Shown here: one piece after another, positions 50,537 to 54,700 of the stretch | Layout of the letters: each line of letters starts with the position of its first letter | How positions within the stretch are numbered: the stretch's first letter is position 1 | DNA from: Escherichia coli | GTDB lineage: Bacteria > Pseudomonadota > Gammaproteobacteria > Enterobacterales > Enterobacteriaceae | Assembly (NCBI RefSeq): GCF_003790525.1 | Contig: NZ_CP033635.1 | Length of the DNA: 64,000 bases | Reading direction: 5' to 3' (one strand) | Position numbers and translations under genes: made by a program | Notes under the pieces: model-generated | Told to the model about the DNA's origin: nothing | What the model saw: only the letters and a program-made list of their open reading frames with translations | The model's database searches: none

Positions 50537-51619
50537 GTGAAACCAGTAACGCTATACGATGTCGCAGAGTATGCCGGTGTCTCTTATCAGACCGTTTCCC
50601 GCGTGGTGAACCAGGCCAGCCACGTTTCTGCGAAAACGCGGGAAAAAGTGGAAGCGGCGATGGCGGAGCTGAATTACATTCCCAACCGCGTGGCACAACA
50701 ACTGGCAGGCAAACAGTCGTTGCTGATTGGCGTTGCCACCTCCAGTCTGGCCCTGCACGCGCCGTCGCAAATTGTCGCCGCGATTAAATCTCGCGCCGAT
50801 CAACTGGGTGCCAGCGTGGTGGTGTCGATGGTAGAACGAAGCGGCGTCGAAGCCTGTAAAGCGGCGGTACACAATCTCCTCGCGCAACGCGTCAGTGGGC
50901 TGATCATTAACTATCCGCTGGATGACCAGGATGCCATTGCTGTGGAAGCTGCCTGCGCTAATGTTCCGGCTTTATTTCTTGATGTCTCTGACCAGACACC
51001 CATCAACAGTATTATTTTCTCCCATGAAGACGGTACGCGACTGGGCGTGGAGCATCTGGTCGCATTGGGTCACCAGCAAATCGCGCTGTTAGCGGGTCCA
51101 TTAAGTTCTGTCTCGGCACGTCTGCGTCTGGCGGGCTGGCATAAATATCTCACTCGCAATCAAATTCAGCCGATAGCGGAACGGGAAGGCGACTGGAGTG
51201 CCATGTCCGGTTTTCAACAAACCATGCAAATGCTGAATGAGGACATCGTTCCTACTGCGATGCTGGTTGCCAACGATCAGATGGCGCTGGGCGCAATGCG
51301 CGCCATTACCGAGTCCGGGCTGCGCGTTGGTGCGGATGTCTCGGTAGTGGGATACGACGATACCGAAGACAGCTCGTGTTATATCCCGCCGTTAACCACC
51401 ATCAAACAGGATTTTCGCCTGCTGGGGCAAACCAGCGTGGACCGCTTGCTGCAACTCTCTCAGGGCCAGGCGGTGAAGGGCAATCAGCTGTTGCCCGTCT
51501 CACTGGTGAAAAGAAAAACCACCCTTCCGCCCAATACGCAAACCGCCTCTCCCCGCGCGTTGGCAGATTCTTTAATGCAGCTGGCACGACAAGTTTCCCG
51601 ACTGGAAAGCGGGCAGTGA
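50537..51619 (+). CDS. lacI: Lactose operon repressor LacI
   Basis: GTG start at 50537 (gtgaaaccagtaacg...), VKPVTLYDVAEYAGVSYQTVSRVVNQ... helix-turn-helix; ends ...SRLESGQ; 360 aa. Confidence 0.97.
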   Translation: MKPVTLYDVAEYAGVSYQTVSRVVNQASHVSAKTREKVEAAMAELNYIPNRVAQQLAGKQSLLIGVATSSLALHAPSQIVAAIKSRADQLGASVVVSMVERSGVEACKAAVHNLLAQRVSGLIINYPLDDQDAIAVEAACANVPALFLDVSDQTPINSIIFSHEDGTRLGVEHLVALGHQQIALLAGPLSSVSARLRLAGWHKYLTRNQIQPIAEREGDWSAMSGFQQTMQMLNEDIVPTAMLVANDQMALGAMRAITESGLRVGADVSVVGYDDTEDSSCYIPPLTTIKQDFRLLGQTSVDRLLQLSQGQAVKGNQLLPVSLVKRKTTLPPNTQTASPRALADSLMQLARQVSRLESGQ

Positions 51620-51632
51620 GCGCAACGCAATT
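51612..51632 (+). promoter_or_regulatory. lac operator O3
   Basis: ggcagtgagcgcaacgcaatt overlapping the 3' end of lacI. Confidence 0.85.
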
Positions 51633-51653
51633 AATGTGAGTCAGCTCACTCAT
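51632..51653 (+). promoter_or_regulatory. CAP (CRP) binding site of the lac promoter
   Basis: taatgtgagtcagctcactcat; TGTGA-N6-TCACT half-sites present. Confidence 0.85.
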
Positions 51654-51667
51654 TAGGCACCCCAGGC

Positions 51668-51697
51668 TTTACACTCTATGCGTCCGGCTCGTATGTT
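51668..51697 (+). promoter_or_regulatory. lac promoter (-35 tttaca, 18-bp spacer, -10 tatgtt)
   Basis: tttaca at 51668-51673 and tatgtt at 51692-51697. Confidence 0.9.
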
Positions 51698-51703
51698 GTG
51701 TGA

Positions 51704-51724
51704 AATTGTGAGCGGATAACAATT
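51704..51724 (+). promoter_or_regulatory. lac operator O1
   Basis: aattgtgagcggataacaatt, the symmetric LacI operator core. Confidence 0.95.
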
Positions 51725-51741
51725 TCACACAGGATACAGCT

Positions 51742-54700
51742 ATGACTATGATTACGGATTCACTGGCCGTCGTATTACAACGTCGTGACTGGGAAAACCC
51801 TGGCGTTACCCAACTTAATCGCCTTGCGGCACATCCCCATTTCGCCAGCTGGCGAAATAGCGAAGAGGCCCGCACCGATCGCCCTTCCCAACAGTTGCGC
51901 AGCCTGAATGGCGAATGGCGCTTTGCCTGGTTTCCGGCACCAGAAGCGGTGCCGGAAAGCTGGCTGGATTGCGATCTTCCTGACGCCGATACTGTCGTCG
52001 TCCCCTCAAACTGGCAGATGCACGGTTACGATGCGCCCATCTACACCAACGTGACCTATCCCATTACGGTCAATCCGCCTTTTGTTCCCGCGGAGAATCC
52101 GACGGGTTGTTACTCGCTCACATTTAATATTGATGAATGCTGGCTACAGAAAGGCCAGACGCGAATTATTTTTGATGGTGTTAACTCGGCGTTTCATCTG
52201 TGGTGCAACGGGCGCTGGGTCGGTTACGGCCAGGACAGCCGTTTGCCGTCTGAATTTGACCTGAGCGCATTTTTACGCGCCGGAAAAAACCGCCTCGCGG
52301 TGATGGTGCTGCGCTGGAGTGACGGCAGTTATCTGGAAGATCAGGATATGTGGCGGATGAGCGGCATTTTCCGTGACGTCTCGTTGCTGCACAAACCGAC
52401 CACACAAATCAGCGATTTCCATGTTGCCACTCGCTTTAATGATGATTTCAGCCGCGCGGTACTGGAGGCAGAAGTTCAGATGTGCGGCGAACTGCGCGAT
52501 GAGCTGCGGGTGACGGTTTCTTTGTGGCAGGGTGAAACGCAGGTCGCCAGCGGCACCACGCCTTTCGGCGGTGAAATTATCGATGAGCGTGGTGGTTATG
52601 CCGATCGCGTCACGCTACGTCTGAACGTCGAAAACCCGGCGCTGTGGAGCGCCGAAATCCCGAATCTCTATCGTGCGGTGGTTGAACTGCACACCGCCGA
52701 CGGCACGCTGATTGAAGCAGAAGCCTGCGATGTCGGTTTCCGCGAAGTGCGGATTGAAAATGGTCTCCTGCTGCTGAACGGCAAGCCGGTGCTGATTCGC
52801 GGCGTTAACCGTCACGAGCATCATCCTCTGCATGGTCAGGTCATGGATGAGCAGACGATGGTGCAGGATATCCTGCTGATGAAGCAGAACAACTTTAACG
52901 CCGTGCGCTGTTCGCATTATCCGAATCATCCGCTGTGGTACACGTTGTGCGACCGCTACGGCCTGTATGTGGTGGATGAAGCCAATATTGAAACCCACGG
53001 CATGGTGCCAATGAATCGTCTGACCGATGATCCGCGCTGGCTACCAGCGATGAGCGAACGCGTAACGCGAATGGTGCAGCGCGATCGTAATCACCCGAGT
53101 GTGATCATCTGGTCGCTGGGGAATGAATCAGGCCACGGCGCTAATCACGACGCGCTGTATCGCTGGATCAAATCTGTCGATCCTTCCCGCCCGGTGCAGT
53201 ATGAAGGCGGCGGAGCCGACACCACGGCCACCGATATTATTTGCCCGATGTACGCGCGCGTGGATGAAGACCAGCCCTTCCCGGCTGTGCCGAAATGGTC
53301 CATCAAAAAATGGCTTTCGCTGCCTGGAGAACTGCGCCCGCTGATCCTTTGCGAATATGCCCACGCGATGGGTAACAGTCTTGGCGGCTTCGCTAAATAC
53401 TGGCAGGCATTTCGTCAGTACCCCCGTTTACAGGGCGGCTTCGTCTGGGACTGGGTGGATCAGTCGCTGATTAAATATGATGAAAACGGCAACCCGTGGT
53501 CGGCTTACGGCGGTGATTTTGGCGATACGCCGAACGATCGCCAGTTCTGCATGAACGGTCTGGTATTTGCCGACCGCACGCCGCATCCGGCGCTGACGGA
53601 AGCAAAACACCAGCAGCAGTTTTTCCAGTTCCGTTTATCCGGGCGAACCATCGAAGTGACCAGCGAATACCTGTTCCGTCATAGCGATAACGAGCTCCTG
53701 CACTGGTCGGTGGCACTGGATGGCAAGCCGCTGGCAAGCGGTGAAATGCCTCTGGATGTTGCTCCACAAGATAAACAGTTGATTGAACTGCCTGAACTAC
53801 CGCAGCCGGAAAGCACCGGACAACTCTGGCTTACGGTACACGTAGTGCAACCGAACGCGACCGCATGGTCAGAAGCCGGACACATTAGCGCCTGGCAGCA
53901 GTGGCGTCTGGCGGAAAACCTCAGTGTGGCACTCCCCTCCGCGCCCCACGCCATCCCGCAACTGACCACCAGCGAAATGGATTTTTGCATCGAGCTGGGT
54001 AATAAGCGTTGGCAATTTAACCGCCAGTCAGGCTTTCTTTCACAGATGTGGATTGGCGATGAAAAACAACTGCTGACGCCGCTGCGCGATCAGTTCATCC
54101 GCGCACCGCTGGATAACGACATTGGCGTAAGTGAAGCGACCCGCATTGACCCTAACGCCTGGGTCGAACGCTGGAAGGCGGCGGGCCATTACCAGGCCGA
54201 AGTGGCGTTGTTGCAGTGCACGGCAGATATACTTGCCGACGCGGTGCTGATTACGACCGCTCACGCGTGGCAGCATCAGGGGAAAACCTTATTTATCAGC
54301 CGGAAAACCTACCGGATTGATGGTAGTGGTCAAATGGCGATTACCGTTGATGTTGAAGTGGCGAGCGATACACCGCATCCGGCGCGGATTGGCCTGACCT
54401 GCCAGCTGGCGCAGGTCGCAGAGCGGGTAAACTGGCTCGGATTAGGGCCGCAAGAAAACTATCCCGACCGCCTTACTGCGGCCTGTTTTGACCGCTGGGA
54501 TCTGCCATTGTCAGACATGTATACCCCTTACGTCTTCCCGAGCGAAAACGGTCTGCGCTGCGGGACGCGCGAATTGAATTATGGCCCACACCAGTGGCGC
54601 GGCGACTTCCAGTTCAATATCAGTCGCTACAGCCAACAACAACTGATGGAAACCAGCCATCGCCATCTGCTGCACGCGGAAGAAGGCACATGGCTGAATA

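What the first reader, a model, noticed from the sequence alone, without database searches (positions are those of the whole stretch)
51612..51744. lac control region carries substitutions relative to the K-12 sequence as recalled
Compared with the K-12/pUC lac promoter I recall, this sequence has: CAP-site spacer gagtCagct (recalled gagtTagct); two changes in the -35/-10 spacer (ctCtatgcGtcc); tgtgAaattgtg just 5' of the O1 core; and caggaTacagct between the Shine-Dalgarno and the ATG. The O1 core, -35 and -10 hexamers are unchanged. lacI and lacZ also show scattered amino-acid differences. These mark the source as a non-K-12 natural allele and could subtly alter CAP dependence or basal expression.
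Basis: partly seen in the sequence, partly recalled or inferred. Interest (0 to 1): 0.2.

Follow-up and report, generated by a model that had tools for sequence, protein, structure and literature searches.

The report
Ordinary natural lac promoter allele
The lac operon control region here differs from the laboratory K-12 sequence at five low-impact bases because the DNA comes from a wild E. coli lineage (SMS-3-5 / ST354) that keeps the ancestral Escherichia version; this is ordinary natural variation of a kind already catalogued.

Summary
Direct alignment with MG1655 shows exactly five differences in the 122-bp lacI-lacZ spacer: T-62C, T-28C, T-22G, G-1A and A+32T. O1, O2, O3, both CAP half-sites, the -35 and -10 hexamers, their 18-bp spacing, the Shine-Dalgarno and the ATG are identical. 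The window is a clone-mate of E. coli SMS-3-5 (phylogroup F, ST354): 100% identical over 32.7 kb.

E. whittamii has the window's base at all five sites. Another Escherichia species, Citrobacter, Kluyvera, Pantoea and Tatumella support C-62, A-1 and T+32. K-12 therefore carries the derived bases. A at -1 is the majority allele in about 5,400 complete E. coli genomes (74%) and T+32 is in 39%. The exact five-site haplotype is rare (43 records at most).

Two published sort-seq models predict almost no effect. RNAP binding energy changes by +0.002 kT. The summed expression coefficient is -0.17, against ±2.4 for the strongest single mutations.

Natural lac-promoter variation falling in low-impact positions was already described (Razo-Mejia 2014; Phillips 2019). 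Verdict: real, ordinary, already known, low interest.

The parts
50537..51619 (+). lacI coding sequence (GTG start, 360 aa); 4 amino-acid differences from K-12
   Evidence: annotated lacI in the identical SMS-3-5 record
51612..51632 (+). auxiliary operator O3 (GGCAGTGAGCGCAACGCAATT), identical to K-12
   Evidence: exact match; alignment
51632..51653 (+). 22-bp CRP/CAP site TAATGTGAGTCAGCTCACTCAT centred at -61.5; half-sites TGTGA (51635-39) and TCACT (51646-50) unchanged; position 11 is C (51642), T in K-12
   Evidence: C at this position in Escherichia outgroups, Citrobacter, Pantoea and Tatumella
51668..51697 (+). lacP1 core promoter: -35 TTTACA, 18-bp spacer carrying C at -28 (51676) and G at -22 (51682), -10 TATGTT
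   Evidence: RNAP energy matrix gives ddE +0.002 kT versus K-12
51703..51703 (+). position -1: A here, G in K-12; A is the majority E. coli allele and makes the 13-bp outer arms around O1 perfectly symmetric (TGTGTGAAATTGT / ACAATTTCACACA)
   Evidence: the symmetry is read directly from the sequence
51704..51724 (+). primary operator O1 (AATTGTGAGCGGATAACAATT), +1 to +21, identical to K-12
   Evidence: exact match
51731..51744 (+). lacZ ribosome-binding region: AGGA (51731-34), T at +32 (51735; A in K-12), ATG at 51742
   Evidence: the +32 change alone does not alter predicted folding
51742..54816 (+). lacZ coding sequence, 1024 aa, 28 amino-acid differences from K-12
52105..52125 (+). auxiliary operator O2 inside lacZ, identical to K-12, centre 401 bp from the O1 centre

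Best explanation
This is a normal, functional lac control region: O3, CAP site, lacP1, O1 and the lacZ RBS, with O2 downstream. It comes from a phylogroup F (ST354, SMS-3-5-like) E. coli and works exactly as in the textbook. LacI binds O1 and loops to O2 or O3, cAMP-CRP at -61.5 recruits RNA polymerase to a weak TTTACA-18-TATGTT promoter, and lacZ is translated from AGGA-N7-ATG. The five differences from K-12 are old, neutral or nearly neutral polymorphisms in positions that none of the proteins reads strongly. At all five sites the window keeps the ancestral Escherichia base. The changes happened on the lineage leading to K-12: T-62, T-22 and A+32 are shared by the A/B1-type haplotype family, and G-1 by a minority. 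Shown: identity, conservation of all core elements, allele frequencies, outgroup states. Inferred from published sort-seq models: the net effect on transcription is about zero, at most around 10%, and the K-12 T at -62 is marginally better for CRP-dependent expression.
For: All five differences and all conserved elements come from direct alignment and exact matching. The window is 100.000% identical over 32,701 bases to SMS-3-5, which is phylogroup F, ST354 (PMC11537424). The 801-bp lacI-lacZ junction is 100% identical in at least 30 listed independent complete genomes, and 32 records are at 99% or more. Allele counts among about 5,400 complete E. coli genomes: A-1 in 3870/5246 records, T+32 in 1964/5068, C-62 in at least 1158/5353, and the exact -56..-2 55-mer in only 43/4097. 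Haplotype table: B2, E and F strains share C-62/G-22/T+32, while B1 and K-12 share T/T/A. Outgroups: E. whittamii matches the window at all five sites, and Escherichia sp. E1V33 at four. Citrobacter, Kluyvera, Pantoea and Tatumella support C-62, A-1 and T+32. The RNAP energy matrix (PMC3521663 Text S2) reproduces the published WT and UV5 energies and gives ddE = +0.002 kT for the window. The linear sort-seq model (PMC3641078 File S1) gives -0.19, -0.07, -0.10 and +0.20, sum -0.17, all below the 39th percentile of effect size. Razo-Mejia et al. found that natural lac-promoter SNPs in 91 strains fall in weakly regulating positions and change binding energies by less than 1 kBT.
Against: No expression measurement exists for this allele. 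The sort-seq models are additive, were trained on the K-12 background and do not cover +32 or translation. Folding predicts a slightly more buried AUG in the window allele, driven by the synonymous +44 and +71 changes rather than by +32. Phillips et al. 2019 found real regulatory variation among natural isolates, though not attributable to specific lac SNPs. Outgroup polarity at -28 and -22 rests mainly on the closest Escherichia species, and recombination between Escherichia lineages could blur it.
Confidence: 0.92

Rival explanations
1. Adaptive regulatory tuning: one or more of the five changes (especially -62 in the CAP site, -1 at the start site, or +32 next to the Shine-Dalgarno) was selected because it measurably alters CAP dependence, basal expression or translation. 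The two big E. coli haplotype families would then regulate lac differently.
For: At -62 all three substitutions away from the K-12 T have negative sort-seq coefficients (-0.19 to -0.39), and T matches the CRP consensus at that position (own knowledge). The eta parameter (CRP effect on RNAP) showed phylogenetic signal among natural isolates (PMC6851279). The window allele's AUG is predicted to be slightly more paired.
Against: Effect sizes are tiny: sum -0.17 against ±2.4, and RNAP ddE +0.002 kT. The alleles are ancestral and shared with other Escherichia species. Intergenic divergence (4.1%) does not exceed synonymous divergence (5.5-7.9%). Phillips 2019 found no clear SNP-phenotype association in this region.
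Confidence: 0.06
2. The lac region of this lineage was imported by recombination from a divergent Escherichia lineage, so the differences reflect horizontal replacement rather than vertical descent.
For: The five-site haplotype is identical to that of E. whittamii. G/A at -1 occurs on two different haplotype backgrounds (K-12 and E2348/69), which implies recombination or recurrent mutation somewhere in the region.
Against: Divergence from K-12 is even and ordinary across mhpR, lacI, lacZ, lacY and lacA (1.1-3.3%, 96.9% overall). That is typical of inter-phylogroup distance (own knowledge). LacZ amino-acid differences are split between the two lineages relative to E. whittamii (12 of 28 shared with the window, 16 with K-12), which is not what a recent import would give. 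The related haplotype C-62/G-22/T+32 is spread over B2, E and F strains.
Confidence: 0.02
3. Artefact: sequencing or assembly errors, or an engineered or vector-derived lac promoter.
For: None found. Vector-derived lac promoters are common contaminants in public assemblies.
Against: The same sequence is present in at least 30 listed independent complete genomes. It sits in its native chromosomal context, mhpR-lacI-lacZYA-cynX. Vector copies all carry the K-12 alleles plus polylinker sequence, unlike this one.
Confidence: 0.003

Closest known systems
E. coli K-12 MG1655 lac control region (lacP1 / CAP site / O1-O2-O3)
   Same: Same architecture, spacing and core elements. O1, O2, O3, the CAP half-sites, -35, -10, the 18-bp spacer length, SD and ATG are identical.
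   Different: Five single-base differences at -62, -28, -22, -1 and +32. K-12 carries the derived base at these sites.
E. coli SMS-3-5 (NC_010498.1; O19:H34, phylogroup F, ST354) lac region
   Same: 100% identical over window 31300-64000, including the whole lac operon, with one mismatch in a further 27.7 kb.
   Different: SMS-3-5 has an IS3-family insertion splitting the autotransporter gene that is intact in the window. The window is therefore a clone-mate, not that assembly.
Natural lac-promoter variants catalogued by Razo-Mejia et al. 2014 (bioRxiv 10.1101/003772) and Phillips et al. 2019 (PMC6851279)
   Same: Same phenomenon: SNPs in the CAP-site spacer and the RNAP spacer that change binding energies by less than 1 kBT, with the operators largely conserved.
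   Different: I could not see their alignment figure, so I cannot confirm that this exact haplotype is in it. SMS-3-5 is not named in the text.
Classical lac promoter/operator mutations (L8, L29, UV5, Oc)
   Same: They lie in the same 122-bp region.
   Different: None of the five positions is one of the high-effect positions -69..-65, -58..-54, -36..-32, -14, -12, -11, -7 or lies within O1. From memory, L8 is at -66 and UV5 at -9/-8.

Membership tests
E. coli-type lac operon control region | Lies between convergently ordered lacI (upstream) and lacZYA (downstream) on one strand | tested here: met
   ORFs 50537-51619 (lacI), 51742-54816 (lacZ), lacY and lacA follow. The identical record carries this annotation.
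E. coli-type lac operon control region | Primary operator O1 overlapping the transcription start, plus auxiliary O3 at -82 and O2 at +412 | tested here: met
   Exact matches at 51704-24, 51612-32 and 52105-25, with the same spacing as MG1655.
E. coli-type lac operon control region | Class I CRP site (TGTGA-N6-TCACT) centred at -61.5 | tested here: met
   51635-39 and 51646-50 are unchanged. Only the central spacer base differs.
E. coli-type lac operon control region | Weak sigma-70 promoter TTTACA-18 bp-TATGTT | tested here: met
   Predicted RNAP energy is -5.345 kT against -5.347 kT for K-12.
E. coli-type lac operon control region | Actual repression by LacI and activation by cAMP-CRP in vivo | not testable with these tools
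   Inferred from identical binding sites and an intact lacI.
K-12 / cloning-vector lac promoter allele | Sequence identity to MG1655 across -84..+41 | tested here: not met
   Five mismatches. Vector-derived copies found in public assemblies all carry the K-12 bases.
SMS-3-5 / ST354 (phylogroup F) clonal lineage | Near-identity over tens of kilobases of chromosome | tested here: met
   100% over 32.7 kb, and one SNP (window 24161) plus one IS difference over the next 30 kb. The same 32 genomes are at 99% or more at two separate loci.
Ancestral Escherichia lac-promoter haplotype | Same base as non-coli Escherichia and other Enterobacterales at the five variable sites | tested here: met
   E. whittamii 5/5 and Escherichia sp. 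E1V33 4/5. Other genera support C-62, A-1 and T+32. Spacer sites -28 and -22 are not alignable with confidence beyond Escherichia and Citrobacter.

The most novel reading that the evidence does not exclude
The textbook K-12 lac promoter is a derived variant. The ancestral haplotype family (C-62, G-22, T+32, with T+44/A+71 in lacZ) is carried by B2, D, E and F strains and by this window. Under this reading it differs measurably (1.5-fold or more) from the A/B1/K-12 family in CRP dependence or lacZ translation initiation, so decades of quantitative lac models would describe only one of two natural regulatory set-points.
Probability: 0.06. Interest if true: 0.3.

Novelty: already known. Interest (0 to 1): 0.05.

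Why it matters
It matters little. The finding correctly flags the source as a wild, non-K-12 E. coli, which is useful provenance: an SMS-3-5-like ST354 strain of phylogroup F. Two minor points are worth keeping. First, the K-12 and vector lac promoter is not the species-typical sequence. G at -1 is a minority allele, and T-62, T-22 and A+32 are derived. Second, the natural substitutions avoid every high-impact position mapped by sort-seq, which fits purifying selection on the core sites, as already published. Nothing here opens a new question.

Tried and rejected
- **O2 search:** my first search used the wrong strand and found nothing in either genome. Searching GGTTGTTACTCGCTCACATTT found it intact in both.
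- **Possible homoplasy in O157:H7:** strain TR01 matched the window 100% while other O157 strains were at 99.2%. The alignment showed that typical O157 simply carries an extra G-39C that TR01 lacks.
- **Compensatory pair hypothesis:** the synonymous +44 and +71 changes form a U-A pair in the predicted mRNA fold. E. whittamii and E. coli SCPM-O-B-8794 have C44 with A71, so the two sites do not covary. Rejected.
- **+32 and RBS structure:** the single change leaves the MFE and accessibility essentially unchanged at 60 and 90 nt.
- **CRP energy matrix:** the Kinney 2010 paper is not held. I used the Otwinowski and Nemenman linear model instead. Its supplementary table as stored has scrambled site labels. 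I re-derived the order (3 mutation-type blocks × 75 positions) and validated it against the paper's own statement about -54, -34, -9 and -8, and against the expected high-effect positions.
- **Rfam scan of the whole window:** no hits.
- **Horizontal import of the lac region:** divergence is even and ordinary.
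Full report
**What is there.** Window 51612-51744 runs from operator O3, which overlaps the last codons of lacI, through the CAP site, lacP1 and O1 to the lacZ start codon. I numbered positions from the lacP1 start, so +1 is window 51704, the first base of O1. I then aligned window 51560-51800 with the same stretch of MG1655 (NC_000913.3, fetched).

- 51642 T>C (-62, position 11 of the 22-bp CAP site)
- 51676 T>C (-28)
- 51682 T>G (-22)
- 51703 G>A (-1)
- 51735 A>T (+32, between AGGA and the ATG)

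The 122-bp intergenic region has no other difference. These elements are identical to K-12:

- O1 (51704-24) and O3 (51612-32)
- O2 (52105-25)
- the CAP half-sites TGTGA and TCACT
- TTTACA-18 bp-TATGTT
- AGGA and the ATG

The claim of scattered amino-acid changes also holds: LacI 4, LacZ 28, LacY 0, LacA 8.

**Is it unusual?** No. The whole mhpR-cynX block is 96.9% identical to K-12. Per-gene nucleotide divergence is 1.1-3.3%, and synonymous divergence in lacI and lacZ is 0.055-0.079. At the pooled synonymous rate, 122 neutral bases would carry about 8.8 differences. Five were seen (Poisson P of 5 or fewer about 0.13). The spacer is therefore neither hyper-variable nor significantly conserved overall. 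What stands out is where the changes fall, covered under the functional prediction.

**Source.**

- The 801-bp lacI-lacZ junction is 100% identical to E. coli SMS-3-5 and at least 30 other complete genomes. Only 32 of 5,433 matching records are at 99% or more.
- Window 31300-64000 is 100.000% identical to SMS-3-5 over 32,701 bases.
- Window 1301-31365 matches the adjoining SMS-3-5 DNA with one SNP, at 24161.
- SMS-3-5 has an IS3-family element splitting an autotransporter gene. That gene is an intact 969-aa ORF in the window (26793-29702, minus strand).
- The same set of about 32 genomes shares the intact version.
- SMS-3-5 is O19:H34, phylogroup F, ST354, from water (PMC11537424).

The window therefore comes from a clone-mate of SMS-3-5.

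**Population distribution.** I used short queries designed so that only exact matches fall in the 99%-or-more identity band. All counts are records among about 5,400 complete E. coli genomes.

| Query | Exact matches |
|---|---|
| 49-mer with A at -1 | 3870 of 5246 (74%) |
| 40-mer with T at +32 | 1964 of 5068 (39%) |
| 57-mer with C at -62 | 1158 of 5353 |
| 55-mer from -56 to -2, with both C-28 and G-22 | 43 of 4097 |

The C-62 count is a lower bound, because lineages with a second nearby SNP are not counted.

A spread sample of the 133-bp region shows most genomes four differences away from the window. K-12-like genomes, five away, make up only about 8%.

Ten representative haplotypes plus K-12 were aligned:

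| Strain(s) | -62, -28, -22, -1, +32 | Extra changes |
|---|---|---|
| Window, O157:H7 TR01 | C, C, G, A, T | none |
| Typical O157:H7 (SRCC 1675) | C, C, G, A, T | G-39C |
| E597, SWYHX138 | C, T, G, A, T | none |
| E2348/69 (B2), ETEC4075 | C, T, G, G, T | none |
| ST131 (B2) | C, C, G, A, T | O3 G>A, T-38, T-23 |
| B1-type (675SK2, O111:H8) | T, T, T, A, A | none |
| K-12 | T, T, T, G, A | none |

There are thus two deep haplotype families. C-62/G-22/T+32 accounts for roughly 40% of genomes and T-62/T-22/A+32 for roughly 60%. The -28 and -1 sites vary within both families. The exact five-site combination is rare, but each allele is common.

**Polarity.** One scan of the GTDB species-representative genomes with the O1 core returned 49 loci. 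Many were vector contaminants carrying the K-12 allele plus polylinker. The genuine chromosomal lac regions are informative:

- E. whittamii has the window's base at all five sites.
- Escherichia sp. E1V33 has it at four, with T at -28.
- Citrobacter sedlakii has C-62, G-22 and A-1.
- Three Kluyvera species have A-1 and T+32.
- Three Pantoea species have C-62 and A-1; Tatumella has C-62 and T+32 but G at -1.
- The A at +32 was seen only in the K-12-type E. coli haplotypes (K-12 and the B1-type strains) and in none of the other species compared.

The window therefore keeps the ancestral state, and the substitutions occurred on the K-12 (A/B1) side. The same mixed polarity appears in the proteins. 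LacI residues 141 and 331 are ancestral in the window, and 236 and 268 are derived. LacZ differences split 12 to 16. This is what simple vertical divergence predicts.

**Functional prediction, transcription.**

- RNAP energy matrix. The matrix from Kinney et al., as tabulated by Brewster et al. (PMC3521663, Text S2), reproduced the published energies for wild type (-5.347 kT) and lacUV5 (-6.992 kT) in my hands, which confirms the register.
  - It gives T-28C -0.015 kT, T-22G +0.080 kT and G-1A -0.063 kT.
  - The net is +0.002 kT, meaning no change in polymerase binding.
- Linear sort-seq model of the whole -75..-1 region (PMC3641078, File S1). The stored table has mislabelled site numbers.
  - Reading it as three mutation-type blocks of 75 positions recovers the paper's stated large positive coefficients at -54, -34, -9 and -8.
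  - It also places the high-effect sites at -69..-65, -58..-54, -36..-32, -14, -12, -11 and -7.
  - With that decoding the coefficients are T-62C -0.19, T-28C -0.07, T-22G -0.10 and G-1A +0.20. The sum is -0.17, on a scale where single mutations reach -2.46 to +2.09.
  - All four lie below the 39th percentile of effect size. That would happen by chance about 2% of the time (my arithmetic, 0.386 to the fourth power).
- Rough calibration (inference). Calibrating against -34G, -9A and -8A in the energy matrix gives about 0.5-0.6 kT per unit. A sum of -0.17 then corresponds to roughly 0.1 kT, or about 10% lower expression.
- CAP site. All three substitutions away from the K-12 T at -62 are slightly negative. 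The derived K-12 base is therefore, if anything, marginally better for CRP-dependent expression.
- Published agreement. Razo-Mejia et al. report that natural SNPs in 91 strains fall in weakly regulating positions, and that the CRP-site and RNAP-site variants change binding by less than 1 kBT.

**Functional prediction, translation and repression.**

- The +32 change on its own leaves predicted leader folding unchanged at 60 and 90 nt.
- The complete window leader is about 1 kcal/mol more stable at 90 nt, with the AUG slightly more paired. This is because the synonymous +44 (ACC>ACT) and +71 (GTT>GTA) changes create a U-A pair.
- Those two sites do not covary in outgroups, so I treat the pair as incidental.
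- The -1 A makes the 13-bp arms flanking O1 perfectly symmetric. This lies outside the 21-bp operator that LacI reads, so no effect is expected (inference).

**Comparison with known work, and verdict.** Every defining feature of the E. coli lac control region that can be tested on sequence is met. It is not the K-12 allele. It is the SMS-3-5/ST354 allele and represents the ancestral Escherichia haplotype.

Natural variation of this region and its small predicted effect have been published. Razo-Mejia 2014 covers the sequence variation. Phillips et al. 2019 (PMC6851279) found regulatory diversity among isolates but no clear link to particular lac SNPs.

Novelty is already known and interest is low.

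Noticed in passing
window 26793-29702 (minus strand); insertion point near 29016-29021 (ATTGTT): An intact 969-aa autotransporter ORF. In SMS-3-5 the same gene is split by an IS3-family element (about 1.3 kb). This is the main difference between the window and that genome, so the window is a clone-mate rather than SMS-3-5 itself.
   Followed up: partly
window 26500-30500: The autotransporter locus is very variable within E. coli. Only 32 records are at 99% or more, 183 at 95-99%, 3216 at 90-95% and 1995 at 80-90%, far more divergent than the flanking core genes.
   Followed up: no
window 24161: This is the single SNP (A here, C in SMS-3-5) in 27.7 kb of otherwise identical sequence. By coordinates it lies in sbmA.
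   Followed up: no
window 50488: The lacI promoter spacer carries T where K-12 has C (TTTCGTGG versus TTTCGCGG). It is not the lacIq change: the -35 GCGCAA at 50473-78 and the -10 CATGAT at 50496-501 are unchanged.
   Followed up: partly
window 56169-56189: The lacA initiation region differs from K-12. The annotated start codon is ATG here and TTG in K-12, and the upstream bases read AGGACGGAATGATCGCA versus ATAACGGAGTGATCGCA. This could change LacA translation.
   Followed up: no
window 51724-51752: The synonymous +44 C>T change (lacZ codon 2, ACC>ACT) turns CATGAT into TATGAT. This raises a promoter-like motif TTCACA-17-TATGAT from 9/12 to 10/12 consensus matches. It would start downstream of the lacZ ATG. 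This is a consensus match only.
   Followed up: no
window 51747 and 51774 (+44 and +71): These two synonymous lacZ changes form a U-A pair in the predicted leader fold and slightly bury the AUG. They do not covary in E. whittamii or E. coli SCPM-O-B-8794.
   Followed up: yes
loci L007, L008 versus L001 (position -1): G at -1 occurs on two different haplotype backgrounds: K-12 (T,T,T,G,A) and E2348/69 or ETEC4075 (C,T,G,G,T). This implies recurrent mutation or recombination at or near this site.
   Followed up: no
locus L009 (ST131) and L004 (O157:H7 SRCC 1675): ST131 carries a G>A change inside O3 (GCAACACAATT) plus T-38 and T-23. Typical O157:H7 carries G-39C just upstream of the -35 hexamer. 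The O3 variant may correspond to the O3 binding-energy shift of more than 1 kBT that Razo-Mejia et al. reported in 16 strains.
   Followed up: no
loci L014, L018, L027, L030, L035, L039, L041, L045, L052, L053, L057, L059 (pUC/M13-type) and L015, L023, L024, L043, L046, L051, L061 (T7-lacO/pET-type): Many species-representative genomes of unrelated organisms contain K-12 lac promoter or T7-lacO fragments followed by polylinker sequence. Examples are SAR11, Streptomyces, cyanobacteria and candidate phyla. This is cloning-vector contamination in public assemblies.
   Followed up: partly
loci L019, L022, L026, L031, L032, L034, L044, L048, L050 (Pectobacterium, Dickeya): The exact 18-bp O1 core is conserved in soft-rot Enterobacterales, downstream of a TGTGATCGCTTCCAC CRP-like site and a promoter. 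The downstream sequence does not look like a lacZ start, so a LacI-family operator seems to be reused at another operon.
   Followed up: no
PMC3641078 File S1 (as held): The site labels of the linear coefficients are scrambled. The 225 values are really three mutation-type blocks of 75 positions (-75 to -1), not 75 triplets. Anyone reusing the table by its labels would get wrong positions.
   Followed up: yes
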